A DNA stretch of 64,000 bases from Escherichia phage vB_EcoS_ESCO40, in sequence record NC_106514.1. The stretch is one strand, 5' to 3'. Below, in pieces: positions 18,712 to 40,172 of the stretch (position 1 is the stretch's first letter; the number at the start of each line of letters is the position of its first letter). Under the pieces are notes generated by a model. That model saw only the letters and a list, made by a program, of their open reading frames with translations, searched no databases and was not told the DNA's origin. The position numbers were made by a program, and so were the translations under genes.

Positions 18712-18787
18712 TGGAGCGGCTAGAGGGAATCGAACCCTACTCAGCGAGGCTTGGAAGGCCTGCGACACAACCCGTGTGCTTAACCGC
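18712..18787 (-). tRNA. tRNA-Gly (anticodon UCC)
   Basis: Loop CTTCCAA; T-loop TTCGATT; CCA encoded. Confidence 0.55.
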
Positions 18788-19262: not shown

Positions 19263-19627
19263 AATTGAAAACTCGCAGGGTTAGCGAAACCATCCTCAAT
19301 TAGCATGTTCTAGAATACTAATCAAGTTATCTCCTATTGCACGCAGCTCAAGACTAGTACGAATTTTCAATTGTGGCGGCTCTCAGAAACTCTTCTATTC
19401 TAGCCTCAGAAGCTTACCCCCGAACGCATGTCGGGAAAGTCTTTCCAAGAGCATCAAATAGCACCGTTACACTTTGAGCCATTGATGTATCAAGGAATAG
19501 AAGGACTTGAACCTTCATGAGTTAGACCATTTAACTTAACCGCTTTTAAGGTATATTTCTAGGAGTGGATGTTCCTAGTAAACCTATTCGGCAGTCCCGT
19601 CTACCAATTCCGGCATATTCCAAGATT

Positions 19628-19722
19628 TGGAGGTAGGTAAGGGGATCGAACCCTTACACCGTATCACTACGATCAACCGATTTCAAGTCGGAGTCCAGCG
19701 CCAGCCGTTGGATTGACCTACC
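19628..19722 (-). tRNA. class II tRNA, probable tRNA-Ser (anticodon UGA)
   Basis: Acceptor GGTAGGT/ACCTACC, loop CTTGAAA, long variable arm, T-arm AAGGG-TTCGATC-CCCTT; unusually long at 95 nt. Confidence 0.5.
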
Positions 19723-20233
19723 CTATAAACTCTTCATATACTGCAAATTCCCCGAATAACTCACGTCTAAGATTATTAGCTTTATTTACAGCTTTATCTA
19801 GTTCAGTAAAAAGTCCACCATAATGGAGCTTGCCATCTTTACGTACTTCTATTTTCCACTTATTTCTTTGCTTATGCCAAGTTACATTTTTATACCCAGA
19901 GGTATTATCTACCCTTAATTTAGCATTAGCTTGATTCTGTGATACAGTGGCTATTCGTAAGTTATCCCATTTAGTATTGGACTTATCTTGATCCTTGTGG
20001 TCAATTAGATCTGGTATTTTTCCAGTCATGTATAAGAATGCTAGACGATGTGCTAACCAGCTAGTATTTCCTAGAGTTATCTTCCAATAGCCTAGTTCAT
20101 TAATAAATCCCGCTCTAGTTCCAGCATATTTACTATTCCATTGACTATCTAAATCAGATCTATATTTCCAGAAAAACTCTCCAGTATCTGGTTTATATAA
20201 CAACACGGATTTTAATTCTTGTTGTGTTAGCAT
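19718..20233 (-). CDS. HNH homing endonuclease with AP2-like domain (freestanding, inside tRNA array)
   Basis: HNH motif DLIDHKDQDKSNTKWDNLR; track start 20395 would run through a tRNA gene, so start placed at ATG 20233. Confidence 0.7.
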   Translation of the reverse strand: MLTQQELKSVLLYKPDTGEFFWKYRSDLDSQWNSKYAGTRAGFINELGYWKITLGNTSWLAHRLAFLYMTGKIPDLIDHKDQDKSNTKWDNLRIATVSQNQANAKLRVDNTSGYKNVTWHKQRNKWKIEVRKDGKLHYGGLFTELDKAVNKANNLRRELFGEFAVYEEFIG

Positions 20234-20248
20234 ATATACTCCAATATT

Positions 20249-20342
20249 TGGCGGAAAAGATGGGAGTTGAACCCATAAGGCAATATTGCTATTACTCAAC
20301 CGATTTCCAATCGGGTTTAGTCGCCAGTCTATTTGCTTTTCC
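20249..20342 (-). tRNA. class II tRNA-Ser (anticodon GGA)
   Basis: Acceptor GGAAAAG/CTTTTCC, loop TTGGAAA, long variable arm, G73, CCA. Confidence 0.6.
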
Positions 20343-20348
20343 GTAAAA

Positions 20349-20435
20349 TGGTAGGGATGGAGGGACTCGAACCCACACGTATGTTTCAACACCAAGTTCT
20401 AAGCCTGGCGCGGCTACCAATTTCGCCACATCCCC
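20349..20435 (-). tRNA. tRNA-Leu (anticodon UAG)
   Basis: 87 nt, loop CTTAGAA, long variable arm, A73. Confidence 0.7.
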
Positions 20436-20443
20436 ATTTTGTT

Positions 20444-20517
20444 TGGTGGAGAAAGAGGGAGTTGAACCCTCGTCTTCTGCGTGCAAAGCAGATGTTCTAC
20501 CATTAAACTATATCCCC
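20444..20517 (-). tRNA. tRNA-Ala (anticodon UGC)
   Basis: G3:U70 wobble, A73, stem TCTGC/GCAGA, loop TTTGCAC. Confidence 0.75.
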
Positions 20518-20755
20518 AAATTCTTTAGTTTACTAAGGCTATTAGCTCGGCGTAACTACAGCACCTTCGCTTCGAGCGGAAGGAACCGCGTCATCTCGCA
20601 AACCCGATACACTATTCAGTTGCCGCTGAATCTAGTGGACTAATCTAGAACCTCTCCCAAATAGTAGGGATCGTGCTTTTTGGCAGCCAGTCCTAGGTCG
20701 AGCTAATACCTTAGTGAACTATGATGAGGATTTCTCCTCATCAATTTATATAAAT

Positions 20756-20784
20756 ATTATAACAAGAAATTAAGCATCAAGCAA
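20756..20784 (-). promoter_or_regulatory. sigma70-type promoter driving tRNA operon
   Basis: TTGCTT-17-TATAAT; no ORF downstream, only leader and tRNAs. Confidence 0.6.
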
Positions 20785-20802
20785 ATGAGTTTTTCTTGAA
20801 AT

Positions 20803-20878
20803 TGGTAGCGGGTTCCAGTACTGCCCTGGACTTACTTAGCTTATGAGACTAAGAAGAACTCTATGCCTCCCACCCGCA
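20803..20878 (-). tRNA. degenerate tRNA-like element (CAU anticodon loop, non-canonical T-loop)
   Basis: 76 nt with CCA, loop CTCATAA, 1:72 mismatch, T-loop GGCAGTA lacks TTC, weak D-stem. Confidence 0.3.
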
Positions 20879-20884
20879 ATTGTT

Positions 20885-20960
20885 TGGTCAGTGCGGCAGG
20901 ACTCGAACCTGCGACCCGAATCATCCAAGGATCCCACGCTACCAACTGCGCTACGCACTG
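20885..20960 (-). tRNA. tRNA-Pro (anticodon UGG)
   Basis: C1:G72 as in bacterial tRNA-Pro, loop CTTGGAT, T-arm GCAGG-TTCGAGT-CCTGC. Confidence 0.75.
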
Positions 20961-20991
20961 TTTGTTTTTGTTAACTCACTTTATAAGATAT

Positions 20992-21020
20992 ATTATACAG
21001 AGAATTAAGCTAAATAGCAA
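20992..21020 (-). promoter_or_regulatory. sigma70-type promoter driving tRNA operon
   Basis: TTGCTA-17-TATAAT. Confidence 0.6.
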
Positions 21021-21168
21021 ATGAATTTTTAATAAATTTACTTATTGTGTAGGCCACCTGGAGGCTATGAACCCACGGCTGACAAAGAAATTTGCGAGAC
21101 TTCTCTTAAAAGCCAGAATAGATCCGCCGATCTATCGGAACCTACATAATAAGTAAACTTTATAGTGT

Positions 21169-21289
21169 CATTCTAGACAGGACTCGAACCTGCTATCACT
21201 TGTGCGGACTTACGAGAACCATTCTTTCACTCGAATCGAACGAGCTTCTGCCCTCGCCAAGCTGGTTTCCCCATCAACCACGCTAGAAT
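21169..21289 (-). ncRNA. atypical tRNA-like RNA (121 nt, two T-arm-like hairpins)
   Basis: Perfect 7-bp acceptor pairing ATTCTAG/CTAGAAT enclosing CTCG-TTCGATT-CGAG and GCAGG-TTCGAGT-CCTGT hairpins; does not fold as a standard cloverleaf. Confidence 0.3.
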
Positions 21290-21411
21290 GTTTGATTGTT
21301 TTCAGTGCAAGAGTCCGAGTCTTGGACACGACCGCTTCGCAAGTACATAGGCAGCTTATCATGAGTCAGCACTTCCGAATTGCTAGCTCCGTGTTCTGCA
21401 CTGAAATTTTA

Positions 21412-21759
21412 TTAGTTTAACCGTAAAGTATTATCTACTTCACCATTAATTGTTCGGCATTCCTCTGGGATTGCCGGGGTGGCCTTGTATTCCCACCACT
21501 CAGCACCATCATATTCCCCACGTTCTAGCCAAGTTCCGTCGGCAAACCATACATTACCATAAAGTAATTGTCCACCATATCCAGAATCATATTCAAAGTC
21601 TAGGTTATTAAGAAAATCCTCAATGTCTTCTTCTGTATAACCTAAAGGTAATACCCAAACTTTTTTATCCCCATAATACCCGAATTCTATTTTAATACAC
21701 TTAACTTCAGAATTAGTATTTTTTAAGGCGAGTAACAGCTCTTCTTTAGCATTACGCAT
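21412..21759 (-). CDS. hypothetical acidic protein (115 aa)
   Basis: ORF. Confidence 0.5.
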   Translation of the reverse strand: MRNAKEELLLALKNTNSEVKCIKIEFGYYGDKKVWVLPLGYTEEDIEDFLNNLDFEYDSGYGGQLLYGNVWFADGTWLERGEYDGAEWWEYKATPAIPEECRTINGEVDNTLRLN

Positions 21760-22056: not shown

Positions 22057-22157
22057 GCTTGTTTCCTCAGTTATTAACGAAAATGGTATCTGTGGCTGAA
22101 TTCGATGTCAGCAATGATAGCTGGTTGGCTACCGGTTTACTTAACTCTACACAGAAT

Positions 22158-24678: not shown

Positions 24679-24756
24679 TGGTGGCTCCCCGAGGATTCGA
24701 ACCTACGTACCTTCCGGTTATGAGCCGGGTGCTCATACCATATGAGCTTGAGAACC
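24679..24756 (-). tRNA. tRNA with CAU anticodon (elongator Met or Ile2)
   Basis: Loop CTCATAA, acceptor GGTTCTC/GGGAGCC with two G-U pairs, A73; T-stem weak (3 bp). Confidence 0.45.
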
Positions 24757-28456: not shown

Positions 28457-29253
28457 TTTAAGTATTTTTAAGAACTCTCGTAAAAACTCTTAAAAATACA
28501 GACGATACCGGGAGAGTCATAAGTCTCACTCATTAAGTATTTCAAGACAAAATACAGTAACGTCTATTATTTTCCAGTTTAAGTCAGGGTGACTTAGTGG
28601 TTATGTCCTGCGGTATATTGAGGACTCGGTTAGGCTTGGGGTCATGACTTCCCGCCTTTTGCTGCTACTCAACAGGAGTTATCGCGAATTACCTGTGCTA
28701 TTGTGCACCATTAGTGACATCTCTCATGTCAGCATTTCCCACTTTGTGGATAGCTTGAAAAACTACTCCGATATGGAGAAAGAACTTCACTATCCTAGAA
28801 TACCTTCTAAAGTTCTTCTTTAGCCTGGACATAGTTAAATCGTAATAAAACTATTCAGCAGACTGGTTGGTTAGTCTGGAACCAACTACCACGTGGTTTA
28901 GGCAGTGCGCAACTAACCTCGGAAGCTTTTACGTTAAAAGCATCAGTTATCCAGTTCTTACCGACCGTAGGATTCGAACCTACATCTTCCACCAGTTACG
29001 GCTTGATAATACCAATTATACTAGGACGGCGGTGTTACTACATAAGTGATTTCCACACCCCACTATTTATAAATTAGAGAAGAGTTTAGGGGAGAGGTTT
29101 CAGACGCCTCATTTTACACGTTCTAGCCACTAACCGGGATTGCCGCCCCCTGTGTACTAGTTTTACAACTAACCCACCGACTCTATTCAATGCGCTCCGG
29201 TTGGGATTCTGCACTCAGCGTAATCGGCTCGCTGTTCCCTAATTTATGAATAT
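28457..29253 (-). other. promoter-driven ORF-free region (candidate structured RNA(s) or degenerate tRNAs)
   Basis: About 0.8 kb without an ORF of 60 aa or more, downstream of promoter 29254-29282 and upstream of tRNA-Arg. Confidence 0.4.
28955..29030 (-). ncRNA. tRNA-like element with perfect T-arm but imperfect acceptor
   Basis: GTAGG-TTCGAAT-CCTAC T-arm; acceptor pairing needs a bulge; anticodon not assignable. Confidence 0.25.
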
Positions 29254-30440: not shown

Positions 30441-30745
30441 TCATATTCAACACGATTGGGGTTTTCTTTGTACCCTAAGTCAAGCAAATCATTACGCATA
30501 TGTTGCTTAGCTACTGGGTTCGAGGTTACTAGTACCACTTTCTTTGGTCTCTGCCCAAATTCTAAGAGTAAACGAAGAATTTGATAACCTTCCATACCAT
30601 CTACAGCCAAGTCATTATCCATATAAACGAAGTGGCCTGTGGTATCAGTTTTATTCAGAAACTCTACAGCGGCTTCTGGGGTTCGAATGATAATGTCCAT
30701 TCCGGGAAGATTACGCACATCATCAATCAAAATATGAAAAGTCAT
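30428..30745 (-). CDS. hypothetical protein (105 aa), receiver-domain-like
   Basis: Acidic pocket ILIDD / YMDNDL followed by a Lys; weak resemblance only. Confidence 0.45.
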   Translation of the reverse strand: MTFHILIDDVRNLPGMDIIIRTPEAAVEFLNKTDTTGHFVYMDNDLAVDGMEGYQILRLLLEFGQRPKKVVLVTSNPVAKQHMRNDLLDLGYKENPNRVEYDWQE

Positions 30746-30775
30746 AATAGCCTCGTTTCATCAATTTAAAAATAT

Positions 30776-30804
30776 ATTATACAGATAACTTAATAAATTA
30801 GCAA
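30776..30804 (-). promoter_or_regulatory. sigma70-type early promoter (T5 family)
   Basis: TTGCTA-17-TATAAT. Confidence 0.6.
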
Positions 30805-31187
30805 ATACATTTTTAAATTGTGAAACTAGTAAACCGATAAACAGCCTAGAGGCGCCACAGGCCATATCTTATGAGCCATGTACCTTTGATCTAGGGTTTG
30901 AATCATCAACGAATACTTTGCATCTTTTAGCTTTAGAAGTTTAGAAGTTTGAGTTCTTTAAACTTTTCAGCTTTCATACTTAAATGTTGATCTTTGAAGT
31001 TGTGTCGGTAATATCAACGACGCTTTGTTCTTACGTGTCAGCTTAAAAGGCTGGTGTAATAAACATAATCTCCAATAGATTATACTTTATAGTATGGTCA
31101 GCGGTCTTATTTAACCTCGTATTTCAACCGCTGCTGCGAGGTAAGATGCTTGGGCTTTCGTCTACCGATTTACTAGCTTTTAAATTA

Positions 31188-31826
31188 TTACTCTACTTCA
31201 ATAAAGGTAGAGGCGTTAGACTCGGACAGAACAAAGTCAACATTTGTTGCAAAGTCCTGGTATTCCTCGTCATGCTGCTTAATCAGCTTCTCCAGTTCCA
31301 GCGGATCAATCAAGAATGGAGTATTCTTGAGTTCTAGCAGGTTGAGCTGCATTTTAACTTCATCTTCGGAAGTTTTCTTATCGCGGGTAGCCATGCTATC
31401 CTGCAAACGCTCATATTTAGCATCAAACTGTGCTTTCTGCGTATTAAACTTAACCGTAGCGGCATGGAACTGCTTACGCATGTTAGCCAACAGCTGAGCT
31501 TTAAGCTCCATAGAACGCTTAGCTTCAATTGCTTCCGCAACAGTCATCTTACGAGAGCCAATCTCAACGATTGTTTCCGCATTGCTCTTAATCAGAGCAG
31601 CTTTGATACAATCACGCTGGGACATCATATCTAGGAGAGATTGGAAATCTGCCTTAATACGAGCAGATAGATCGTCTACTTCGATTGCAGCGCCAACTAC
31701 AACCTTATTTTTATCCTTACCTTCACCAACAGCGATCAGAAGCTGTTGTTCAGTAGCTTTACGGATTTTAGCTTCCAGAGATTTGATAGTTGCCAGAGCG
31801 CGAGTTTTAGAAATACGAGTAGTCAT
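31188..31826 (-). CDS. coiled-coil protein (212 aa), high-expression codon usage
   Basis: Charged heptad-like sequence; cgt/ctg/gct codon bias. Confidence 0.55.
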   Translation of the reverse strand: MTTRISKTRALATIKSLEAKIRKATEQQLLIAVGEGKDKNKVVVGAAIEVDDLSARIKADFQSLLDMMSQRDCIKAALIKSNAETIVEIGSRKMTVAEAIEAKRSMELKAQLLANMRKQFHAATVKFNTQKAQFDAKYERLQDSMATRDKKTSEDEVKMQLNLLELKNTPFLIDPLELEKLIKQHDEEYQDFATNVDFVLSESNASTFIEVE

Positions 31827-31879
31827 TATTTGCTTCCTTATATGAAGTTTGAGATTTGAATTTGTTTAAATTTGATCTA

Positions 31880-32062
31880 TTACAGACCAATTGCCAGCAG
31901 AGTGCGCAGAACAGTATCATTACTGTTATCAATTTTAGGATTAGCACGATTTAACAGATCAAAGATTTTCTGGATACCTGATTGACGTTCAGCCATACGA
32001 CGGATACCCAGATTACGAGTAGCTTTCTTACCATTTTTACGAACATTTTTAGATACTGGCAT
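31880..32062 (-). CDS. small basic protein (60 aa)
   Basis: RBS AAAGGAAAAC; Lys/Arg-rich. Confidence 0.45.
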   Translation of the reverse strand: MPVSKNVRKNGKKATRNLGIRRMAERQSGIQKIFDLLNRANPKIDNSNDTVLRTLLAIGL

Positions 32063-32101
32063 ATTTGTTTTCCTTTTATTGTTTTCTCAAATTTATGAAT
32101 A

Positions 32102-32130
32102 TATTATACAGAATTTTGGAGCCGGAAGCA
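32102..32130 (-). promoter_or_regulatory. sigma70-type early promoter (T5 family)
   Basis: TTGCTT-17-TATAAT. Confidence 0.6.
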
Positions 32131-32132
32131 AA

Positions 32133-32834
32133 TCAAATTTTCATTTTTTCGATCATAGCTGCAACACAATAGCTTTCAACTAAGGCATCAAATGCAGGAT
32201 CATGCTTAACCGGATAGATCCCATAACGAATGGTGTCCATCTTCTCCATTTTAGCTATTGCCCAGCTAATACCTTCGGTCTCTAGAGCCTTATAACTGTA
32301 TCCAGCTTGCATCCAGAGATTACGAAGAGATCGAACATTACCCAAATTCCAGAATTTCCACGGAACTACCTCTTCATTGGTTCCAGCATGGAAAGTGTTT
32401 GCAGAGTAGATAGTCATATCAAACTCTGGGCCATTGCCATAATACAAAGCATTTTCGCCTAGAGCCAACTCCATAATATTTTGAGCCATAGAGAAGGCAG
32501 CATAGTTAGAGCCAAGTTTATTAGTACAATGATGTTTACCATTTTGGAAGGCAATCAGTTTTGGATTACGCTCGTTCATAGCTTCCATAATGTGGATAGC
32601 AGACGGGCTATTTTTAGCTTGATCCATCCAGAATGCTAGAGTAGATGCTGTAACTTTGGCACCAGAATTAAGCTGATCTTGCACATCCAAAGTAACAAAT
32701 ACTAGATTAGGGTCTTTATCAATCCCATGCATAGCCACAAAAGCGAAAGAAGGCATTACGATATGAGTAGTACCACAATCCCCTGGAGTTCCTAGAGATT
32801 CAATATCTAACATACCAAATGGTTTTACTTTCAT
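32133..32834 (-). CDS. DEDDh-type 3'-5' exonuclease-like protein
   Basis: N-terminal MLDIESLG (D-x-E) and C-terminal HDPAFDA (H-x4-D) motifs. Confidence 0.5.
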   Translation of the reverse strand: MKVKPFGMLDIESLGTPGDCGTTHIVMPSFAFVAMHGIDKDPNLVFVTLDVQDQLNSGAKVTASTLAFWMDQAKNSPSAIHIMEAMNERNPKLIAFQNGKHHCTNKLGSNYAAFSMAQNIMELALGENALYYGNGPEFDMTIYSANTFHAGTNEEVVPWKFWNLGNVRSLRNLWMQAGYSYKALETEGISWAIAKMEKMDTIRYGIYPVKHDPAFDALVESYCVAAMIEKMKI

Positions 32835-32862
32835 AACTTATCCTTTATTGCGTAGAAAACTA

Positions 32863-33099
32863 TTAAAGAGCTGTCTCTTTAATAGACTCCCACTTCTTGG
32901 GGTCTTTAAAACCAGGAAGCATATCTTCACTAACATCCCAGTTTTCTTCCATAGAAAAGTCTGGCCATTCATTCCAGCTATCTTCCAGTTCTTCGTAGCA
33001 GGTATCCATTACCTCATGACTAGAAAGTCGTGTATAATCTCTAGCGGACTTATGAGTGCTAGCACGGTTAAAATCATTCTTTGCTACAAAATTACGCAT
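32863..33099 (-). CDS. hypothetical acidic protein (78 aa)
   Basis: RBS TGGAGAAAC. Confidence 0.45.
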   Translation of the reverse strand: MRNFVAKNDFNRASTHKSARDYTRLSSHEVMDTCYEELEDSWNEWPDFSMEENWDVSEDMLPGFKDPKKWESIKETAL

Positions 33100-33140
33100 A
33101 GTTTCTCCAAATAAGAGGGGCTTTCGCCCCCTGACTTAAA

Positions 33141-33356
33141 TTATTTGCCCAGCAGTTTAAGGATATTTTCCATAATAGTTTGGGCAGATTTTTCACTCTT
33201 GTTGGTTTCAGCCAACTTTAAAGCGAGTTCTTCCTGCTGTTTCTGAATATCAGCAGCAATTTTCTGATCAGCCTCGATACGAGCTTGAAGTTCATCAGTG
33301 ATAGTAGTAAAGGAAGCAACGATTTCAGTAACGGAACGTGGTTTCTTGGAGAACAT
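33141..33356 (-). CDS. small coiled-coil protein (71 aa)
   Basis: Flanked on both sides by identical GGGGC-GAAA-GCCCC hairpins. Confidence 0.45.
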   Translation of the reverse strand: MFSKKPRSVTEIVASFTTITDELQARIEADQKIAADIQKQQEELALKLAETNKSEKSAQTIMENILKLLGK

Positions 33357-33415
33357 AAAAATATCCTTGATTAGTTAGAGAGCTAGTTGACTGTAGGGGC
33401 TTTCGCCCCTATCTA

Positions 33416-33931
33416 TTACTTCGCTTTACGTTTACGAGCTGGTTTAGCAGATTTACGAGCGGAATCGCCCGTGAATTTAATACCTACACCATAACACAGA
33501 GCACGAACGTTATCTTTGCTATATTCTACACCAAAGATATTTGGCTTAACAGAACCAAACTGTCCACGAGTATCACGCAATACATCTGCTGTTGGTTTAC
33601 GCTTCTGGTTAACTGCCTTCTCATAGTCTTTCATAGACATACCATTACGAGAGAACAATTCAGCCCCAGCGTTGAAGCTCAGGGAAACTGGGACAGATTT
33701 GTGGCCGTAATTTTCTACATACATAACCATTTTGTAGGATTTACGGGTAGCATTTTTAGCTTTAGGCTTCTGACGAATCGGAGCCGGATTATTCAGTGCT
33801 TGTGCAGCCTGAGCATCGGTAGGATGCTTACGCAGGTGACGTTCCAGGCGAGCTTTGCGATTAGCCTCAGTCTTCGGGAAAGTTTTAACTGCCGGAGCTG
33901 CTTGAGTTTTTGCGTTTTTCTGCTTAGCCAT
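33416..33931 (-). CDS. basic protein (171 aa), high-expression codon usage
   Basis: Lys/Arg-rich termini. Confidence 0.55.
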   Translation of the reverse strand: MAKQKNAKTQAAPAVKTFPKTEANRKARLERHLRKHPTDAQAAQALNNPAPIRQKPKAKNATRKSYKMVMYVENYGHKSVPVSLSFNAGAELFSRNGMSMKDYEKAVNQKRKPTADVLRDTRGQFGSVKPNIFGVEYSKDNVRALCYGVGIKFTGDSARKSAKPARKRKAK

Positions 33932-33969
33932 TATTTATTTTCCTTTTTGTTTATCAATTTATGAAGTAT

Positions 33970-33998
33970 ATTATACGAGAATTTGAAGCGTTTAGCAA
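33970..33998 (-). promoter_or_regulatory. sigma70-type early promoter (T5 family)
   Basis: TTGCTA-17-TATAAT. Confidence 0.6.
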
Positions 33999-34014
33999 AT
34001 GAATTTTTTAAAAA

Positions 34015-34293
34015 TTATCTACCAACCATCTTAGCTTGTTCGGCATCTGAGACATATTGATACGCTCCTTTATTATACGCTGGAGCAGTACACATTTTCT
34101 TACGCTCAATCTCTTCTTGAGCTTTTCTTTCGCGTTCAGCTAATTCTTCGTCCAGATAAACTAAACGTTGTTCTGGAGGAGGTGGAAGACGTGTTTCTGG
34201 CTCACCAATATTAGCCTTTCTTATTTGACGAGGTGATTGTGCACGTTTTCTCAATGGTTTAAATCCTAATGAATTTGAGTTATAAATTCGCAT
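34015..34293 (-). CDS. hypothetical protein (92 aa)
   Basis: ORF. Confidence 0.45.
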   Translation of the reverse strand: MRIYNSNSLGFKPLRKRAQSPRQIRKANIGEPETRLPPPPEQRLVYLDEELAERERKAQEEIERKKMCTAPAYNKGAYQYVSDAEQAKMVGR

Positions 34294-34318
34294 AAAGCCC
34301 CCTCACTTTCAATACGAA

Positions 34319-34347
34319 TATTATACTAAATTAAAGGGCTTTAAGCA
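34319..34347 (-). promoter_or_regulatory. sigma70-type early promoter (T5 family)
   Basis: TTGCTT-17-TATAAT. Confidence 0.6.
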
Positions 34348-34368
34348 AGAAAATTTTTAATTTATTTA

Positions 34369-34857
34369 TCACATCTCAGCCATTTCAGCTTCAGTAATAA
34401 CTGTATTACATAGTGCATCTACAGCTTCATTACCACTAATTCCTGAGTGCCCTTTTACTTTAATAAAAGTAGGATTAGTATTGTGGAAGTTAATGTATTG
34501 CTGAGTTAATTTAAATGCTTCTTGCCAAAGTTCTAGATTAAGAGGGATTTCACCATCTGCTTTCTTCCAGCCTTTCTTTTGCCAAGAAAACATCCAACTT
34601 TCCATACCATTTTTGCAATAAGCAGAGTCAGTATATATAATAATTGGTCTATTATCTTTTTTAACGGACCAACGTAGAGCTTCTACAATAGCTGTGAGTT
34701 CCATCTCATTATTTGTAGTTTTAGGACTATAACCAGATTTAGAGCCTAAACGATCGTCGTTATCATCATAGACAATAAAACCCCAAGCACCCGGGCCAGG
34801 GTTGGACTTACAAGCACCATCTGTGTAAATGTGGAAAACCGACATTATACCTCCCAA
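34369..34857 (-). CDS. rnhA: ribonuclease H
   Basis: N-terminal IYTDGACKSNPGPGAWG RNase HI signature. Confidence 0.8.
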   Translation of the reverse strand: MGGIMSVFHIYTDGACKSNPGPGAWGFIVYDDNDDRLGSKSGYSPKTTNNEMELTAIVEALRWSVKKDNRPIIIYTDSAYCKNGMESWMFSWQKKGWKKADGEIPLNLELWQEAFKLTQQYINFHNTNPTFIKVKGHSGISGNEAVDALCNTVITEAEMAEM

Positions 34858-35126
34858 CTAATTTTAAGACCTATGTCTACAAAGGCGGCTTCTCGGTAGT
34901 ATTGTGAGAGATGATACCCCTTATCCGATAAGGTTTTTAGTACCGATTTAGCGGCTCCTGGCATTTCTCTAGGATTATATAGCCACCTAGCGTAAGGATT
35001 ATCTCGAATAATTACTTCTGTATTTCCAGACTTAGCAGCTTCTACAATCTTTTCTTCTATAAACTTTAGAAATGCGGGTACTTCTGTTAATCCTGCAAGT
35101 TCTTGGGCTTCTTTGGCTGAAATCAT
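34845..35126 (-). CDS. hypothetical protein (93 aa)
   Basis: ORF. Confidence 0.5.
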   Translation of the reverse strand: MISAKEAQELAGLTEVPAFLKFIEEKIVEAAKSGNTEVIIRDNPYARWLYNPREMPGAAKSVLKTLSDKGYHLSQYYREAAFVDIGLKISWEV

Positions 35127-35148
35127 TGTATACCTCCAATTTATAAAA

Positions 35149-35177
35149 TATATTATATTTAAATTTCACTAAATAAG
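35149..35177 (-). promoter_or_regulatory. sigma70-type early promoter (T5 family)
   Basis: TTGCTT-17-TATAAT. Confidence 0.6.
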
Positions 35178-35180
35178 CAA

Positions 35181-35210
35181 ATGAAATTTAAATATAATAG
35201 CCCCGAAGGG
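35181..35210 (-). terminator. intrinsic terminator
   Basis: AGCCC-UUCG-GGGCU hairpin plus U-rich tract after thyA stop. Confidence 0.6.
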
Positions 35211-35219
35211 CTATTTAAG

Positions 35220-36059
35220 TTAAGAGGACATTTTAGCTTTAAGAGCTGGATGAGGATCGTACCCCTCTAAATGGAATGACCAAGCTGCCGTATTATTTTC
35301 TAGTAAGTCGTAAAGATCTACAAACTCTGGCATTACTAGAGTTGGCAGAGGGCGTGGCTTGCGTTTTACCTGTTCTTCTACCTGTTCCATGTGGTCATTA
35401 TAGATATGAGTATCACCGCCACTAAAGATAAGATAACGAGGTTTTAATCCTGTCAGTTTTGCTAATATATGCGTTAATAAAGCATAACTAGCAATATTGA
35501 AAGGTAAACCGAGGAAACAATCCACAGAGCGTTGTGTCCATTTAAGATCTAGGTATCCATCGTTACTTACATAGCACTGGAAGCCATAGTGACATGGTGG
35601 TAATGCCATTTTATCAAGTTCAGCTACGTTCCACGCAGAAACTAGGTGTCTACGACCATGTGGATTATTCTTGAGTCCCTCAATGAGTTCTAAAATCTGA
35701 TCTCGTCCGCCAAAGTTGCGCCATTGTTTACCATATACTGGTCCTAGATTACCATTGTCATAACCCATGCTTATAGCTTGGTCTTCATAATTTGGGGTCC
35801 AGATGGTCCACTGTCCTTCGTCACGACCAAATGTGAATACACGTAGATCATGAAGATTTGTGGAACCAGACAAGAACCATAAAAGTTCTCCTACTACTGA
35901 TTTCCAGGCCAGGCGTTTAGTAGTTACAGCCGGGAACCCTTCACGTAAATCGAACTTAGCATAGGAATCAAAAATTGAAACTGTGCCTGTTCCTGTACGG
36001 TCATTACGGGGTTCACCTAGTAAAATTACATCTGTCAAAATTTTTAAGTATTGTTGCAT
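35220..36059 (-). CDS. thyA: thymidylate synthase
   Basis: Active-site region ALPPCHYGFQCYV and YGKQWR motifs. Confidence 0.85.
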   Translation of the reverse strand: MQQYLKILTDVILLGEPRNDRTGTGTVSIFDSYAKFDLREGFPAVTTKRLAWKSVVGELLWFLSGSTNLHDLRVFTFGRDEGQWTIWTPNYEDQAISMGYDNGNLGPVYGKQWRNFGGRDQILELIEGLKNNPHGRRHLVSAWNVAELDKMALPPCHYGFQCYVSNDGYLDLKWTQRSVDCFLGLPFNIASYALLTHILAKLTGLKPRYLIFSGGDTHIYNDHMEQVEEQVKRKPRPLPTLVMPEFVDLYDLLENNTAAWSFHLEGYDPHPALKAKMSS

Positions 36060-36592
36060 TAATAAGTAACCAATTCCTGTACAAATCGCAGGCTGTTATC
36101 ACTGTTTGCGCCAACTGCATAGACTAATCGGGTGGATTCATAGTTATAATCCAGTATCATACTATCTAGGTGTATATCTGCCTCTAGCTTCTGTTCGCTA
36201 AAGATTGTAGATACAAAAGCACTTTCTATATGCCCATGTTGGTACATTTCTAGAAGAAGATTAGCTCCGCCTAGAACTACTGTTTGCTGATCTTTTAGAA
36301 AGGTAGGTAATGTATCACCTATCATTGATATGGGAGTGTAAATATCATGTGTAATATCGTCTGGCAATGGACGATCAGCACGAATAAATAGGTCAGAAGC
36401 TCCAATCATACGTTCCCTAACGGCATATGGAAGAGCTAAATAAGTACCAGCACCAATGATGATGTTATCTGGATTCAACACGTCCAGTTGAGAATAGAAA
36501 GCATCTAGTTCTTCTTTGAAGGAACCCCATGGAAGTTTACCACGGAGGCCGAACTCCCCATTCGGCCCAACTGCATATATTGCTGTAATCAT
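36059..36592 (-). CDS. frd: dihydrofolate reductase
   Basis: N-terminal IYAVGPNGEFGLRGKLPW; coupled to thyA and nrdB. Confidence 0.75.
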   Translation of the reverse strand: MITAIYAVGPNGEFGLRGKLPWGSFKEELDAFYSQLDVLNPDNIIIGAGTYLALPYAVRERMIGASDLFIRADRPLPDDITHDIYTPISMIGDTLPTFLKDQQTVVLGGANLLLEMYQHGHIESAFVSTIFSEQKLEADIHLDSMILDYNYESTRLVYAVGANSDNSLRFVQELVTY

Positions 36593-37734
36593 AAGAAATC
36601 TCCAAATTCATTACCCAGATCTTTCAGAGTATCAGTAGAGGTCTCAGTTACCTGACCTACACGGTAAGCTGCACCAATCTGGATTTCTTGCGGAGCAGGC
36701 TGTAGAGAAGTAGTATCCAACCAGTTCATGATCCACGGAATAGGGTTTTTGGTGATTACAGGCAGATTACTTGGCCATTCTACACCGATGTGCATAAATG
36801 CATTGCGCCCCACAAAGTACAGATATTCTTCTAGAAGTTCTGCATTCAAGCCAATCAGACTACGACCTTTGAAAATGAAATGACCCCATTCAATTTCAGT
36901 TTTCAGAGTTTTCAGGAGCTGTGCTGGTGCTTTAGCCACTGCCTCATCTACCAGATCTTTGTCAAATTGCTGAAACATAATCTGGATGATTGCTTTGGAC
37001 ATCTGAGTGTGCAGAGCTTCATCTTTAGCGATTAATTGCAGATTTTTAGCAATACCTTGCAGAATATCGTTCTCTGCTAATGCAAAGGTACATGCAAAGG
37101 ATGCGTAAAACTGCATTGCTTCCAGACCATAGATCGCAAAGTAAGCGTCTAATAGTTTAGCCTGAGTTTCACGTTTAACTTCAGGGAACTCAGTTTCTGG
37201 ATATGTATTGTCGCCACGATGATCGCGTACTGCAATGAAATACTGACCTAACTGGTACAGTTCATCGAATAGTTCAACAGAATCAGCGATGCGTGCGAAT
37301 GCTTCCTGGTTTTTGGTTACAGAATCAATAAATTCTGCTGGATCAGTCAACACATTACGAATAATATTACTATATGCACGGCTATGCAGATCTTCGAAGT
37401 AGCTCCACTGCTTGAGCATACCTTCCAATTCTGGACGACTTACAAGCGGCATAATAGCTGCTTCAGGAGCACGACTGATAAAGGAATCTGTTTGGGTCTG
37501 CCATGCTAAGTTCAGGAGTGTAATTTCCTGAATTTCACGTGGGAGGTTGGGCCATTGTTTCTTATCTGCTTCCAGACTGATTTCAGTTTCAGTCCAAAAT
37601 TGAGAGCGTTGCAGAAGTGCCAGACGCTCTAATTCTGGATGTGCTACACGCACATAATCTGCGATACCTAGAGAATCGCCCAGGAAAAGATCAGCGTTAG
37701 TATGATCCCAATTCAGGTTTAGTAAAGTAGTCAT
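36589..37734 (-). CDS. nrdB: ribonucleotide reductase small subunit (class I)
   Basis: Length and di-iron R2-like sequence; adjacent to large subunit. Confidence 0.8.
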   Translation of the reverse strand: MTTLLNLNWDHTNADLFLGDSLGIADYVRVAHPELERLALLQRSQFWTETEISLEADKKQWPNLPREIQEITLLNLAWQTQTDSFISRAPEAAIMPLVSRPELEGMLKQWSYFEDLHSRAYSNIIRNVLTDPAEFIDSVTKNQEAFARIADSVELFDELYQLGQYFIAVRDHRGDNTYPETEFPEVKRETQAKLLDAYFAIYGLEAMQFYASFACTFALAENDILQGIAKNLQLIAKDEALHTQMSKAIIQIMFQQFDKDLVDEAVAKAPAQLLKTLKTEIEWGHFIFKGRSLIGLNAELLEEYLYFVGRNAFMHIGVEWPSNLPVITKNPIPWIMNWLDTTSLQPAPQEIQIGAAYRVGQVTETSTDTLKDLGNEFGDFL

Positions 37735-37765
37735 TGATTTTCCTCTTTCTCACTATTTCAGGAAT

Positions 37766-37794
37766 ATTATAGCAAATCAGGTAGCGATTAGCAA
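37766..37794 (-). promoter_or_regulatory. sigma70-type early promoter (T5 family)
   Basis: TTGCTA-17-TATAAT. Confidence 0.6.
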
Positions 37795-37804
37795 GTAAAA
37801 TTTC

Positions 37805-37832
37805 AAAGAAAAAGGAGACCCGAAGATCTCCT
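37805..37832 (-). terminator. intrinsic terminator
   Basis: aggaga / tctcct stem with U-run after nrdA stop. Confidence 0.55.
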
Positions 37833-37840
37833 TGTTTTTA

Positions 37841-40172
37841 TTAAATAGTACAACCACCGGATGCACAACCTGCTGCTTCTTCTCCAGCACCTCCACCATT
37901 TGCGGTATTGAAGTTAGCATAATACCAAGTTTTCCACCCATACTTAACAGCAGTCATGAAATCACGAACTACTACTGGGCCAGGAATAATTTCATTCTCA
38001 AACTTGGTGTAGTCATAGTACATATTCGTGCTGATAGACTGACTGAAGAATTTCTGCATAGTTGCTACCCATTTGATCCACTCGATACGATCTACATCAT
38101 AAGCCAATTTATAGCTCATTAACGTTTCCCAATCGGTTGCACCTGGAGCAATTGCAATTACTTTATTTACTGCACTACCTTTGATAGATACAATCTTACG
38201 AGGTGGTTCGATAGAGTTAGTAACACCTAACAGAACAGAAGAACTTTCTCCCGGCATCTGAGCAGTCAGAACAGAGTTACGCATACCATATTTCATAATA
38301 TCTGCACGCAGAGACTCCCAATCCATTTCTAGACCTACGGATACCAGTTCATCAACAGTTTTCTTGTACGTGTCGATTACCAGAATTCCTTTAGATGGTT
38401 TAGTACGATCAAACCACTCACATGCGCCCTGTTCTTTAGCCAGGCGTACGGAGGCTTTATGCAGGAAGTAAGATAGTTTTTCAGCCTCACGGTGGATCCA
38501 GTTACGAGCTTCAATACCTTCGTAAGCCAGACCTTCTGCTGCCATTGCACCTGCTGCGTTCATTAGTCCAATACCAACATTACGACGTTTCTTAGCCGTA
38601 TATTCCATAGTTGGGAACGGATAATCCTGAATTTCAATAATTGTATCAACGAATTTCAGAAGGATGTAGCAAGTTTTTTCCCACTCAGCCAGAGATTCCA
38701 TGCGTCCTAGTACAACACCACCTAAGTTGCACAGAGATACTTCACCAATATCCTCCGGCTTCATTTGATCAAGTTGTTCTTTTGTTTTATACAGTTCCGT
38801 GATATGATGGAACGGACGTGTAGGCTGAGTAATTTCAACACAAAGGTTTGTCATACGGATCGGATCAAGGAAGTTACCGTGACGATTAGATTCCCCGATG
38901 TGGTGAGCATACATACGTCCTGTTTCCATTCGGATACGTAGCCAAGTATCTAGGATTTCTTTTGCAGAGACTTTAGGAGCTGCTGGAACTGTTTTTCCTT
39001 CGTGGTCGATCTTTGTAAGAGATGCCACACGTTTCTCCGCTGCCACATAGATTTCTTCAAATTTAGCCTCGTCATCACTATAAAACGCTTCATGAACTTC
39101 TGGAGCATAGAAGTATGACATTAGCGTAATATCTTCATTTTTCAGATAACGTTTTAACAAAAGATTGTTGAAGCTCAGAGAATAATCCATCTTATCGATT
39201 TTATTCTCATCTGTAGCACGTTGCTGCTTAACCTGCATCAATTGAATGATTTCAGGGTCAAAGTATGGATAAGACACTGTAGCAGAACCACCACGAGTTT
39301 GCTGAGTATTGGCCTTTACTGAGCGGTCAATGTGTCGATAATATGGCAGTTTTCCGGAATGCGGGAATGCCCCATTTCGCACCGGATCAGCAATTGATCG
39401 GCTTTCAAGATGATACCCGATTCCCGCTCTGGCTGCGACCATTTTGAAGACGATGTGCTCGGCTGTGTCGATTGAATCCAATGTGTCAGTGGAATCCACG
39501 AGGCAACAACTAGCAAATCCACGATCACTAGAGCGCAAGCCAACCAATGGCGGCGTAGGAATGTTGATTTTGTGTAGCGACATTGCGTTGTAGAGGTCGA
39601 TTGCATCTAGAATTGTCCAATTAGGTTGAGATAACATCGCCATTGCCATACCCATATAGGCGAATTGCGGGGTTTCGTAAATTTCGCCAGTTGCGATATT
39701 ACGACGGGAATACTTATCAAAGAATTGTTTCAATCCTCCGCTAGTGAAAAGACGGTCGCGATCATGGTCGATAACCTGATTCAGAGCTTCAAATTGCTCA
39801 TCGGTAATCCATGCACTCATGTCTTCCCATGCACCTACACTAACCATATGATCGTGGAAGAAGCGTAGAGAAGGTGGTTCGAAGGAATCATAAAGGCGTT
39901 TACGCATCTGCGCAAGACGTAATTCCTTTGCTGGCACGTCGTATGCTGGATTATCTTTGATAAGACTTTCAGCAGCTTTAATTAAAGCATCCATCAGAGT
40001 GTCGGAATCTACAACCCCTTTAGGCAGAGTTTTTTGAGCAGCCATAGTAATGGCTGACCAACTTACATCAACTGTTTTGCAGCCATACTCTGCCCAACCA
40101 TTGAGTTTTTCAGGAGCAAAGTCTTCTACAGTACCGTCACGTTTAATTACTTTTTCAATGCGATGGCTCATT
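37841..40172 (-). CDS. nrdA: ribonucleotide reductase large subunit (class I)
   Basis: N-terminal ATP-cone (RVIKRDGT...); start at ATG 40172 with RBS AAGGAAAA rather than track start 40276. Confidence 0.85.

What the first reader, a model, noticed from the sequence alone, without database searches (positions are those of the whole stretch)
21169..21289. 121-nt tRNA-like RNA with two T-arm hairpins
A perfect 7-bp acceptor pairing (ATTCTAG/CTAGAAT) encloses 121 nt containing two T-arm-like hairpins (CTCG-TTCGATT-CGAG and GCAGG-TTCGAGT-CCTGT) and a TGGT...ACCA D-like stem. It is too long for a tRNA and too short for a group I intron; could be a tRNA disrupted by an insertion or duplication, or a distinct tRNA-like RNA.
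Basis: seen in the sequence. Interest (0 to 1): 0.5.

Follow-up and report, generated by a model that had tools for sequence, protein, structure and literature searches.

The report
Phage T5 tRNA-like RNA2 gene
This is the already annotated "RNA2" gene of T5-like phages: a tRNA-shaped RNA whose anticodon loop is replaced by a conserved 55-nt module with a second T-arm, and it turns out to belong to a widespread phage RNA family of unknown function.

Summary
Window 21289..21169 has a 7-bp acceptor helix, a D arm, a T arm and a second T-arm-like hairpin.

The window is a T5-like phage (Tequintavirus). The element is 97.6% identical to T5 gene rna2, annotated in GenBank AY543070 as "tRNA-like stable RNA with unknown functions". 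It sits in the same place in the tRNA gene cluster. So it is already known as a gene, but its function is not.

New here:
- It is neither a broken tRNA nor a T5 oddity.
- Pattern scans found homologues in many unrelated phage contigs, including environmental ones, always inside tRNA arrays.
- A covariance model built only from non-T5 members hits the window element at 87.9 bits (E 2.6e-21).
- Covariation supports the acceptor, D, "anticodon" and inner-hairpin helices and, more weakly, the outer T stem.
- The 7-nt anticodon loop is replaced by a conserved module: helix GGGY/KWCC, an invariant CGUAA, a second T-arm and a conserved UGG.
- No insert-free allele was found.

Best reading: a tRNA frame carries a non-decoding functional RNA module, processed like a tRNA. 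Its partner is unknown; a decoy for a tRNA-binding factor is my guess.

The parts
21169..21289 (-). Whole RNA2-like gene: 121 nt from the acceptor 5' end to discriminator G. The T5 annotation of rna2 corresponds to 21166-21290.
   Evidence: Covariance model R1 hit at 87.9 bits, E 2.6e-21, full length. blastn to T5 rna2: 97.6% identity over 125 nt. Annotation.
21283..21289 (-). Acceptor helix, 5' strand (AUUCUAG).
   Evidence: Pairs with 21170-21176. All 7 pairs show changes on both sides across the family, e.g. UACGGGG/UCCCGUA in Klebsiella phage Sugarland.
21170..21176 (-). Acceptor helix, 3' strand (CUAGAAU). It is followed by discriminator G (21169) and then ACA rather than CCA.
21263..21280 (-). 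D arm: stem GGUU/AACC (extendable to UGGUU/AACCA) with loop GAUGGGGA, including the G18/G19-like GG.
   Evidence: All 4 stem pairs covary. The tertiary-interaction nucleotides U8, A14, GG and A21 are conserved in the family.
21258..21262 (-). Anticodon-stem equivalent, 5' strand (GCUUG).
   Evidence: Pairs with 21198-21202 (CAAGU). All 5 pairs show double changes, e.g. CCUG/CAGG and GGGUG/CGCCC.
21198..21202 (-). Anticodon-stem equivalent, 3' strand (CAAGU). It is followed by a 4-5-nt variable loop.
21203..21257 (-). Conserved 55-nt module that takes the place of the 7-nt anticodon loop.
   Evidence: Holds most of the invariant columns of the family alignment. The full-coverage matches listed all carry it.
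21250..21253 (-). Helix Pb, 5' strand (GGGC).
   Evidence: Pairs with GUCC at 21206-21209. G-C and G-C are invariant or nearly so. The last pair is C:G in 14 clusters and U:U in 20 (mutual information 0.99 bit).
21206..21214 (-). Invariant CGUAA (21214-21210) followed by helix Pb 3' strand GUCC (21209-21206).
   Evidence: CGUAA is identical in all 53 aligned members. Its C pairs with an invariant G and the neighbouring pair covaries (AU 19, UA 19, CG 4, GC 2), so GUAA looks like a 4-nt bulge.
21229..21245 (-). Second (inner) T-arm-like hairpin: GCUCG-UUCGAUU-CGAGU.
   Evidence: 4 of 5 stem pairs show double changes. The loop keeps the T-loop consensus G-UUCRANY-C.
21219..21221 (-). Conserved UGG in the strand after the inner hairpin. 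It may be a G18/G19-like partner of the inner T-loop (inference).
   Evidence: The GG is invariant or nearly so in the alignments. The interaction itself was not tested.
21177..21193 (-). Outer, canonical T arm: GCAGG-UUCGAGU-CCUGU.

Best explanation
**What it is (shown).** The element is the orthologue of bacteriophage T5 gene rna2. It is a member of a phage-restricted family of tRNA-shaped RNAs.

**Architecture (shown).** It is a complete class-I tRNA frame:
- a 7-bp acceptor helix;
- a D arm with the GG of the elbow;
- a 5-bp anticodon stem;
- a short variable loop;
- a T arm.

The 7-nt anticodon loop is replaced by a conserved module of about 55 nt. The module consists of an internal loop, a 4-bp helix GGGY/KWCC, an invariant CGUAA whose GUAA is probably bulged, a 2-bp helix, a second T-arm hairpin and a conserved UGG.

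**How it most likely works (inferred).**
1. It is transcribed on the minus strand together with the neighbouring tRNA genes.
2. It is cut out by the tRNA-processing enzymes (RNase P, 3' trimming, possibly CCA addition), because its acceptor/T/D parts are those of a tRNA.
3. It accumulates as a stable RNA of about 120 nt.
4. It cannot decode, because it has no anticodon loop.
5. The tRNA body therefore serves as a natural scaffold for processing and stability. The conserved module is the working surface.

My best guess, which is speculative, is that the module presents a second tRNA-like elbow or anticodon-arm-like surface to a tRNA-binding factor of the cell. It would then act as a decoy or inhibitor, in line with the counter-defence role now shown for other genes of the T5 tRNA cluster.
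For: **Identity**
- The window is a T5-like phage.
- blastn to T5 rna2 gives 97.6% identity over 125 nt. The flanking T5.067 ORF, RNAIV, promoter P13a and tRNA-Pro are in the same order.
- GenBank AY543070 labels the gene 'RNA2, tRNA-like stable RNA with unknown functions'. AY692264 and the BF23 record NC_042564 carry the same gene label.

**Family**
- Homologues occur in Demerecviridae of several genera and in Acinetobacter phage W16.
- They also occur in IMG/VR and metagenome contigs.
- The reference-genome scan gave only one true hit, on a 167-kb contig (L117) that resembles the W16 copy; I take it to be phage.

**Structure**
- 93.8% of cells are paired, against 62% in shuffles.
- The covariation score is 0.78, against 0.18 in shuffles (0 of 500 shuffles reach it) and at most 0.22 when partners are slid.
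- RNAalifold independently recovers the same five helices.

**Context**
- In all 38 loci examined the element is on the same strand as tRNA genes; where enough flank is held it sits inside a tRNA array (about two thirds of them).
- At least 7 members encode CCA after the discriminator.

**Other points**
- It is not coding: no frame is conserved, and 7 of 34 members have stops in all six frames.
- The T5 tRNA region is an anti-tRNase arsenal (PMC11464382; bioRxiv 10.64898/2026.07.10.737580).
Against: - No transcript, processing or binding data could be examined here. 'Stable RNA' rests on a database note.
- The window copy has ACA, not CCA, after the discriminator.
- The acceptor-stem sequence is not conserved across the family, so no single aminoacyl-tRNA synthetase identity is evident.
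- No protein gene is a constant neighbour.
- A T5 strain lacking the region (deletion 30661-38625) is viable, so the RNA is dispensable in the laboratory.
- The decoy idea has no direct support.
- Variants L055, L066 and L068 lack the inner T-arm or the D arm. This weakens the 'two elbows' reading.
Confidence: 0.55

Rival explanations
1. It is a precursor tRNA with a 45-50-nt intron in the anticodon loop. Splicing would give a decoding tRNA with the loop N-U-CC-R-Y-N, that is, Arg(CCG)-like or Trp(CCA)-like.
For: - ARAGORN in intron mode reads 18 of 28 members as intron-containing tRNAs, mostly Arg(CCG) or Trp(CCA), with the intron near position 32/33.
- The Rfam tRNA model passes its threshold on two divergent members when the insert is treated as an insertion (L084 at 50.6 bits, L069 at 47.9 bits).
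- The GGG of the insert pairs with the would-be anticodon CC, as introns do in eukaryotic pre-tRNAs.
Against: - ARAGORN intron mode finds nothing in the window, T5-type, Sugarland or EH5 copies.
- Position 37 of the reconstructed loop would be a pyrimidine and position 32 a G or U, which is abnormal for elongator tRNAs (established tRNA knowledge).
- W16-type copies have A at the would-be position 33.
- No intron-free allele appears among the full-coverage matches listed from 383 records.
- Contigs with the CCA type also carry a normal tRNA-Trp(CCA), and L080 carries a normal tRNA-Arg(CCG).
- No bacterial or phage machinery is known for such an intron.
- T5 annotators list the full 125-nt species as the stable RNA.
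Confidence: 0.1
2. It is a cis-acting processing or stability element. A tRNA-shaped 'punctuation mark' would direct RNase P and 3' nucleases to cut the long tRNA-cluster transcript, releasing RNAIV and the flanking mRNAs. It would have no function of its own in trans.
For: It always sits inside tRNA arrays on the same strand. In T5-type phages it lies between an ORF and RNAIV. Some members have acceptor helices that can be extended by flanking bases.
Against: A punctuation role needs only the acceptor and T arms. Yet the most conserved part, across very distant phages, is the inserted module: an invariant CGUAA, a perfect C:G / U:U two-state pair and a covarying inner hairpin. Its neighbours differ from phage to phage.
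Confidence: 0.12
3. It is a chargeable tRNA-like RNA used outside normal decoding. Examples would be a tmRNA-like ribosome factor or an amino-acid donor for a non-ribosomal reaction.
For: The acceptor, T and D parts are intact and some members encode CCA. The Acinetobacter phage W16 copy lies 18 nt upstream of a 76-aa RF-1 (GGQ) domain ORF.
Against: - No tag ORF is present and there is no tmRNA call.
- The acceptor-stem and discriminator identities vary freely.
- The RF-1 neighbour was seen only for the W16 copy and its IMG/VR twin L043. The related L117 has a different ORF there.
Confidence: 0.1
4. It is a decayed tRNA pseudogene, broken by an insertion or a partial duplication that left a second T arm.
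For: It has two T-arm-like hairpins in one gene, and standard tRNA finders do not call it.
Against: - The same architecture occurs in 35 clusters sharing less than 90% identity, from unrelated phages.
- Compensatory changes occur in every helix, including the inner hairpin.
- The insert is more conserved than the frame.
- No intact tRNA allele appears among the full-coverage matches listed.
Confidence: 0.03
5. The locus is part of a small protein-coding gene. Some GenBank records annotate a 'hypothetical protein' over it.
For: ORFs overlap it at 21202-21420(+) and 21210-21362(-). Several phage records carry 'hypothetical protein' there.
Against: No reading frame is conserved. Lengths vary by amounts that are not multiples of 3. 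Of 34 members, 7 have stops in all six frames. The substitutions are pair-compensating.
Confidence: 0.01

Closest known systems
Bacteriophage T5 rna2 ('RNA2, tRNA-like stable RNA with unknown functions'; GenBank AY543070 32959-33083; also in AY692264, the BF23 record NC_042564 and Salmonella phage 5 record AJ604531)
   Same: It is the same gene: 97.6% identity over 125 nt, the same strand relative to the tRNA genes and the same neighbours (T5.067 ORF upstream; RNAIV, promoter P13a and tRNA-Pro downstream).
   Different: Only a few substitutions. [quoted passage not shown]
Canonical bacterial or phage tRNA (Rfam RF00005)
   Same: 7-bp acceptor helix, D arm with GG, 5-bp anticodon stem, 4-5-nt variable loop, T arm with UUCRANY, location in a tRNA array, and an encoded CCA in some members.
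   Different: It has no 7-nt anticodon loop; a 55-nt structured module stands in its place. ARAGORN and Rfam do not call the window copy at any threshold tried.
Intron-containing tRNAs (archaeal and eukaryotic pre-tRNAs; bacterial tRNAs with group I introns)
   Same: An extra sequence lies in the anticodon loop and pairs with anticodon-side bases.
   Different: It is far too short and has the wrong shape for a group I intron. The spliced loop would break tRNA rules (pyrimidine at position 37). No intron-free alleles were seen. The full-length RNA is listed as the stable product.
Phage T4 species 1 and species 2 RNAs (rnaC, rnaD)
   Same: They are small stable RNAs of unknown function encoded within a phage tRNA gene cluster, partly tRNA-like.
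   Different: They are not homologous. Model R1 gives only 18 bits on rnaC (its tRNA-like 3' part) and nothing on rnaD.
Engineered 'tRNA scaffolds' for expressing RNA in E. coli (from memory: Ponchon and Dardel; related paper PMC3753655 appeared but was not read)
   Same: The design principle is the same: a foreign structured RNA replaces the anticodon loop of a tRNA, so the chimera is processed and stabilised like a tRNA.
   Different: Those are artificial. This one is natural, and its insert is conserved.
YrlA / bacterial Y RNAs and the tRNA-like domain of tmRNA
   Same: Both are non-decoding RNAs that contain tRNA-like T-arm and D-arm modules.
   Different: Neither Rfam family matches the window copy. 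The best YrlA score on a divergent member is 23.8 bits against a 69-bit threshold. There is no Ro-binding stem and no tag ORF.

Membership tests
T5 rna2 (RNA2) gene | Sequence orthology to the annotated T5 rna2. | tested here: met
   97.6% identity over all 125 nt. The match falls on the feature 'rna2' in AY692264 and AY543070.
T5 rna2 (RNA2) gene | Conserved position in the tRNA cluster: after tRNA-Asp and the T5.067 ORF, before RNAIV, promoter P13a and tRNA-Pro. | tested here: met
   T5.067 maps to 21412-21759, RNAIV to 21046-21147, P13a to 20976-21039 and tRNA-Pro to 20885-20960, all on the minus strand.
T5 rna2 (RNA2) gene | Accumulates as a stable RNA of about 125 nt in infected cells. 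| not testable with these tools
   Only the annotators' note supports this. No expression data were available.
RNA2-like phage RNA family (defined here; model R1) | A tRNA frame plus the conserved module (AGGGY ... inner T-arm ... UGG ... CGUAA-KWCC-RYN) in place of the anticodon loop. | tested here: met
   87.9 bits, E 2.6e-21, full length, from a model built without any T5-like sequence.
Canonical tRNA (RF00005) | Cloverleaf with acceptor, D, anticodon and T stems. | tested here: met
   The acceptor, D and anticodon stems are fully supported by covariation and the T stem partly (2 of 4 pairs).
Canonical tRNA (RF00005) | A 7-nt anticodon loop with U33 and a purine at position 37. | tested here: not met
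   55 nt lie between the two strands of the anticodon stem. No reading gives both U33 and a purine at 37 across the family.
Canonical tRNA (RF00005) | Recognised by tRNA gene models. | tested here: not met
   ARAGORN gives no call. Rfam gives no hit at the gathering threshold or at E <= 10 for the window copy. Two divergent members do pass.
Intron-containing tRNA | Removing the insert restores a normal anticodon loop. | tested here: not met
   ARAGORN intron mode gives nothing for the window copy. In other members the restored loop has a pyrimidine at position 37.
Intron-containing tRNA | Intron-free alleles exist in relatives. | tested here: not met
   Every full-coverage match listed (40 of 383 rows shown) is in two pieces spanning about 124 nt.
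Intron-containing tRNA | A spliced product is made. | not testable with these tools
   Needs RNA data.
tmRNA | A tRNA-like domain plus a tag reading frame and pseudoknots. | tested here: not met
   ARAGORN, which also searches for tmRNA, and Rfam find none here.
YrlA / bacterial Y RNA (RF02553) | Match to the family model, including the Ro-binding stem. | tested here: not met
   No hit at E <= 10 on the window copy. The best score elsewhere is 23.8 bits against a 69-bit threshold.
T4 species 1 / species 2 RNAs | Homology to rnaC or rnaD. | tested here: not met
   Model R1 gives 18.4 bits on part of rnaC and nothing on rnaD.

The most novel reading that the evidence does not exclude
RNA2-like RNAs are an undescribed, phage-wide class of natural 'tRNA-scaffolded' effector RNAs; no Rfam family matches them. 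The tRNA body secures processing and stability. The conserved module (GUAA bulge, GGGY/KWCC helix and a second T-loop elbow) binds and neutralises a tRNA-directed host factor. Candidates are an anticodon nuclease of an anti-phage defence system, or an enzyme that reads the NGUAA anticodon-loop signature of tRNA-Thr.
Probability: 0.25. Interest if true: 0.75.

Novelty: already known. Interest (0 to 1): 0.45.

Why it matters
The gene has been annotated in T5 GenBank records (AY-series accessions) without a function. T5's tRNA cluster is now known to be a counter-defence arsenal against host tRNA-cutting immune systems such as PARIS, retron Eco7 and OLD.

This work shows that RNA2 is a conserved RNA family spread across very different phages. 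It has a precisely conserved non-decoding module mounted on a tRNA frame. That turns an old curiosity into a testable candidate for a new kind of phage RNA effector, and gives a covariance model and a mutational target list (CGUAA, GGGY/KWCC, the inner T-loop).

If the RNA has only a processing role, the finding is of minor interest.

Tried and rejected
- **Rfam:** searched at gathering and at permissive thresholds, on the window and on 13 divergent loci. No family fits other than partial tRNA matches.
- **Literature:** seven full-text searches found nothing on T5 RNA2 itself. The original work of the laboratory behind AY543070 is not in the library.
- **T4 rnaC and rnaD as homologues:** rejected.
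- **Constant protein neighbour:** flanking ORFs were clustered across 38 loci. Only clade-specific families appeared, and none was informative in Pfam. The RF-1-domain neighbour is confined to W16-type phages.
- **Origin from a neighbouring tRNA, especially tRNA-Thr:** the frame with the insert removed shows no consistent similarity to any isoacceptor in the same locus.
- **Pseudoknot G96-U97 with R104-Y105 (alignment columns):** always base-pair compatible, but only one side varies. It is hard to reconcile sterically with the two stacked helices, so it is left open.
- **D-like mini-hairpin NNN[UGG]N'N'N', or pairing of the linker with the strand before CGUAA:** seen in some clades in different registers. 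Constrained folding gives no consistent answer.
- **K-turn, loop-E, UAA/GAN and GNRA-closing readings of CGUAA:** considered by eye and rejected as not fitting the consensus.
- **Internal promoter-like site at 21199-21170(-):** weak (9 of 12), within chance expectation.

Full report
**1. The observation**

Read on the minus strand, window 21289..21169 is:

AUUCUAG-CG-UGGUUGAUGGGGAAACCA-GCUUG-[55 nt]-CAAGU-GAUA-GCAGGUUCGAGUCCUGU-CUAGAAU-G.

- the perfect 7-bp terminal helix;
- a D-like arm with a GG-containing loop;
- a T arm, GCAGG-UUCGAGU-CCUGU;
- a second T-arm-like hairpin, GCUCG-UUCGAUU-CGAGU, inside the 55 nt.

The minimum-free-energy fold keeps these elements, but its energy is not unusual (z = -0.89). 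Thermodynamics alone therefore proves nothing. ARAGORN finds 18 tRNA genes on the minus strand between 17.6 and 28.5 kb, and Rfam also finds 18. Neither calls this element, and Rfam finds nothing here even at E <= 10.

**2. Identity**

The window is a T5-like phage (Demerecviridae, Tequintavirus). A 181-nt query around the element is 100% identical to Escherichia phage vB_EcoS_VAH1 and matches 480 phage records.

- In T5 record AY692264 the match falls on a misc_RNA called rna2, followed by RNAIV.
- In T5 record AY543070 the same feature (32959-33083, minus strand) reads [quoted passage not shown].
- The BF23 tRNA-region record says "tRNA-like RNA with unknown functions".
- A third T5 record, AY587007, annotates nothing there.

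blastn of the T5 features against the window gives rna2 at 21290-21166 with 97.6% identity. The T5 neighbours are in the same order: ORF T5.067 at 21759-21412, RNAIV at 21147-21046, promoter P13a at about 21039-20976, and tRNA-Pro.

Its function has not been established. I found no paper on it in the searchable library.

**3. It is a family, not a T5 peculiarity**

More distant Demerecviridae keep the architecture while changing the sequence. Examples are Pectobacterium phage DU_PP_V, Klebsiella phage Sugarland and Salmonella phage EH5. In Sugarland the acceptor helix is UACGGGG/UCCCGUA instead of AUUCUAG/CUAGAAU. The anticodon-type stem is CCUG/CAGG instead of CUUG/CAAG. The inner hairpin stem is UACGG/CCGUA instead of GCUCG/CGAGU. 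An Acinetobacter phage of 167 kb (W16), unrelated to T5, also has a copy.

Two degenerate DNA patterns were taken from the conserved blocks.
- They found further copies in IMG/VR contigs (read) and in metagenome contigs whose sample names point to varied environments, including the human gut. Some of these contigs are 100-500 kb long.
- The same scan of one genome per bacterial and archaeal species gave five hits. Only one is a true copy, on a 167-kb contig (L117) that resembles the W16 copy and that I take to be phage. On the evidence of that exact-pattern scan, the family looks phage-restricted.

I built a covariance model (R1) from 17 members, none of them T5-like.
- It hits window 21169-21289(-) full length at 87.9 bits, E 2.6e-21.
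- That is the only such hit in the window. Ordinary tRNAs reach at most 44 bits, by matching the frame and skipping the insert.

**4. Structure from comparison**

Fifty-three members were aligned to the model; they form 35 clusters below 90% identity.
- 93.8% of pair cells are standard pairs, against 62% after shuffling.
- The covariation score is 0.78, against 0.18 in shuffles (0 of 500 reach it) and at most 0.22 when partners are slid by 1-3 columns.
- Changes on both sides occur in all 7 acceptor pairs, all 4 D-stem pairs, all 5 anticodon-stem pairs, 4 of 5 inner-hairpin pairs and 2 of 4 outer T-stem pairs.
- RNAalifold, run without my structure, recovers the same five helices.
- The frame also keeps the tertiary nucleotides of a tRNA: U8, A14, the GG of the D loop and A21.

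The frame is thus a normal class-I tRNA with a 4-5-nt variable loop. The 7-nt anticodon loop is replaced by a module that carries most of the invariant positions of the family.

The module reads as follows, with window bases in brackets:
- a 3-4-nt junction ending in A (GCGA);
- GGGY (GGGC);
- N-G-N-N (AGAA);
- the inner hairpin with loop UUCRANY;
- a strand of 16-22 nt containing an almost invariant UGG;
- an invariant CGUAA;
- KWCC (GUCC);
- R-Y-N (GCA).

GGGY pairs with KWCC. Two G-C pairs are invariant or nearly so, the third position is G.U or G.A, and the last is C:G in 14 clusters and U:U in 20. No other combination occurs apart from one misaligned row (L069, read as A:G). The mutual information is 0.99 bit.

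The G after GGGY-N pairs with the C of CGUAA in 52 of 52 rows. The next pair covaries (AU 19, UA 19, CG 4, GC 2, UG 1, unpaired 7). GUAA therefore looks like a 4-nt bulge between two short helices.

Three points remain inferences or open:
- The inner T-loop may dock on the downstream UGG as a tRNA T-loop docks on G18/G19.
- A possible alternative pairing of G-U (of CGUAA) with R-Y is always compatible but varies on one side only.
- Pairings of the linker strands differ between clades.

Three variants (L055, L066, L068) keep AGGGY...CGUAAKUCCGCA and the outer T arm but lack the inner T arm or the D arm. This suggests that the GUAA/helix core is the most essential part.

**5. What it is not**

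*Not coding.* No frame is conserved, lengths vary by amounts that are not multiples of three, and 7 of 34 members have stops in all six frames.

*Not a broken tRNA.* The insert is the best-conserved part. When the T5-type frame with the insert removed is used as a query, every full-coverage match listed is in two pieces spanning about 124 nt (40 of the 383 matching records are shown). No insert-free allele was seen in cultured phages.

*Probably not an intron-containing pre-tRNA.*
- ARAGORN in intron mode reads 18 of 28 members as Arg(CCG)- or Trp(CCA)-type tRNAs with a 45-50-nt intron. It does not do so for the window, DU_PP_V, Sugarland or EH5 copies.
- The restored loop would have a pyrimidine at position 37.
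- Several contigs with the CCA type also carry a normal tRNA-Trp(CCA), and L080 carries a normal tRNA-Arg(CCG).

*Not related to the T4 stable RNAs rnaC and rnaD*, nor to tmRNA or YrlA.

**6. Context**

In all 38 loci examined the element is on the same strand as tRNA genes. Where enough flank is held it sits inside a tRNA array, often within 10 nt of a neighbouring tRNA (about two thirds of the loci). At least seven members encode CCA after the discriminator. Others have CUA, CAA or ACA; the window copy has G-ACA. Flanking protein genes differ from clade to clade, and none is a constant partner.

In the window, the nearest strong promoter-like site on the minus strand lies downstream of the element. 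It is TTGCTA-17-TATAAT at 21020-20992, which corresponds to T5 P13a. RNA2 must therefore be transcribed from further upstream, together with tRNA-Asp and ORF T5.067. This is an inference.

**7. How it most likely works**

*Shown:* a tRNA frame, conserved and covarying, carries a conserved structured module where the anticodon loop should be, in phage tRNA operons.

*Inferred from established tRNA biology:* an RNA with an intact acceptor/T/D body is a substrate for RNase P and 3' maturation. It will be stable, and without an anticodon loop it cannot decode. This is the logic of the artificial "tRNA scaffold" used to express RNAs in E. coli (my own knowledge).

*Speculative:* the module is a binding surface for a factor that normally reads tRNA, and RNA2 acts as a decoy or inhibitor. 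The circumstantial support is as follows.
- The T5 tRNA cluster supplies nuclease-resistant tRNAs against PARIS, and T5 tRNA-Tyr protects against retron Eco7 (PMC11464382).
- Phage tRNAs rescue infection from the OLD tRNase (bioRxiv 10.64898/2026.07.10.737580).

The invariant NGUAA equals positions 34-38 of threonine tRNAs. CGUA also fits the Y-G-U-N preference that I recall for colicin-E5-type anticodon nucleases. Both are only resemblances.

Against any essential role, the T5Mos strain lacks 30661-38625, which includes rna2, and it grows.

**8. Verdict**

- The "distinct tRNA-like RNA" reading is right, and the "disrupted tRNA" reading is wrong.
- The gene itself is already known (T5 rna2), so its novelty as a feature is nil.
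- New here are the family-wide conservation, the covariation-supported architecture and the definition of the conserved module. No Rfam family matches them, and the literature I could search does not describe them.
- The function remains open.

Noticed in passing
window 21046-21147 (-): Orthologue of T5 rnaIV ('stable RNA with unknown functions'), 95% identical, lying 18 nt downstream of RNA2. It folds as a long hairpin-like RNA whose ends pair. Rfam gives only a chance-level match there (rli51, 19 bits).
   Followed up: partly
window 19264-19624 (-): Three more T5 stable-RNA genes lie in tandem: rnaIII (19264-19369), rnaI (19374-19480) and rna1 (19481-19624). T5 annotates rna1 as a 'tRNA-like stable RNA'; it looks like a class-II, Leu-like tRNA with an insert. 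They were mapped by blastn only.
   Followed up: partly
window 20537-20708 (-) and 22084-22156 (-): Orthologues of T5 rna2H (172 nt, 98% identical) and rna3 (73 nt, 100% identical, 'putative tRNA-like RNA' next to tRNA-Asn). Neither is called by ARAGORN or Rfam.
   Followed up: no
window 24682-24756 (-) and 28959-29030 (-): Two tRNA genes are called by Rfam (40.3 and 35.5 bits) but missed by ARAGORN. Model R1 also gives weak tRNA-frame hits at 18715-18787 and 19631-19722.
   Followed up: no
window 20500-21050, compared with T5 (L002): [quoted passage not shown] It therefore lacks the tRNA-Lys that T5 uses to neutralise the PARIS defence system (PMC11464382).
   Followed up: partly
L006 375-489 and 508-738 (Acinetobacter phage vB_AbaSt_W16): The RNA2-like gene lies 18 nt upstream of a 76-aa ORF that is only an RF-1/GGQ domain (Pfam PF00472, E 3e-10). 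A GGQ domain without a ribosome-binding part next to a tRNA-like RNA is suggestive. The pairing is not seen in the related contig L117.
   Followed up: partly
L044, L054, L088, L108, L078, L106, L083, L062: In several clades the RNA2-like gene is followed within about 10 nt by a tRNA-Thr gene (GGU or UGU). The invariant CGUAA of the module equals positions 34-38 of tRNA-Thr(CGU). No sequence relationship between the frames was found.
   Followed up: partly
L055 1051-1150; L066 836-959; L068 1710-1820: These variant family members keep AGGGY...CGUAAKUCCGCA and the outer T arm. They replace the inner T arm by a plain hairpin (L055) or lack a normal D arm (L066, L068). Scores are 30-41 bits.
   Followed up: partly
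L044, L054, L088, L106: In one environmental clade the acceptor helix can be extended by three more pairs with the flanking bases (GUG...CAC). That would hinder normal RNase P and CCA maturation.
   Followed up: no
window 19718-20395 (-): A 225-aa ORF overlaps the 3' part of tRNA-Ser(GGA) and part of tRNA-Leu. It is at the position of the T5 HNH homing endonuclease hegC, which likewise overlaps tRNA-Ser in T5.
   Followed up: no
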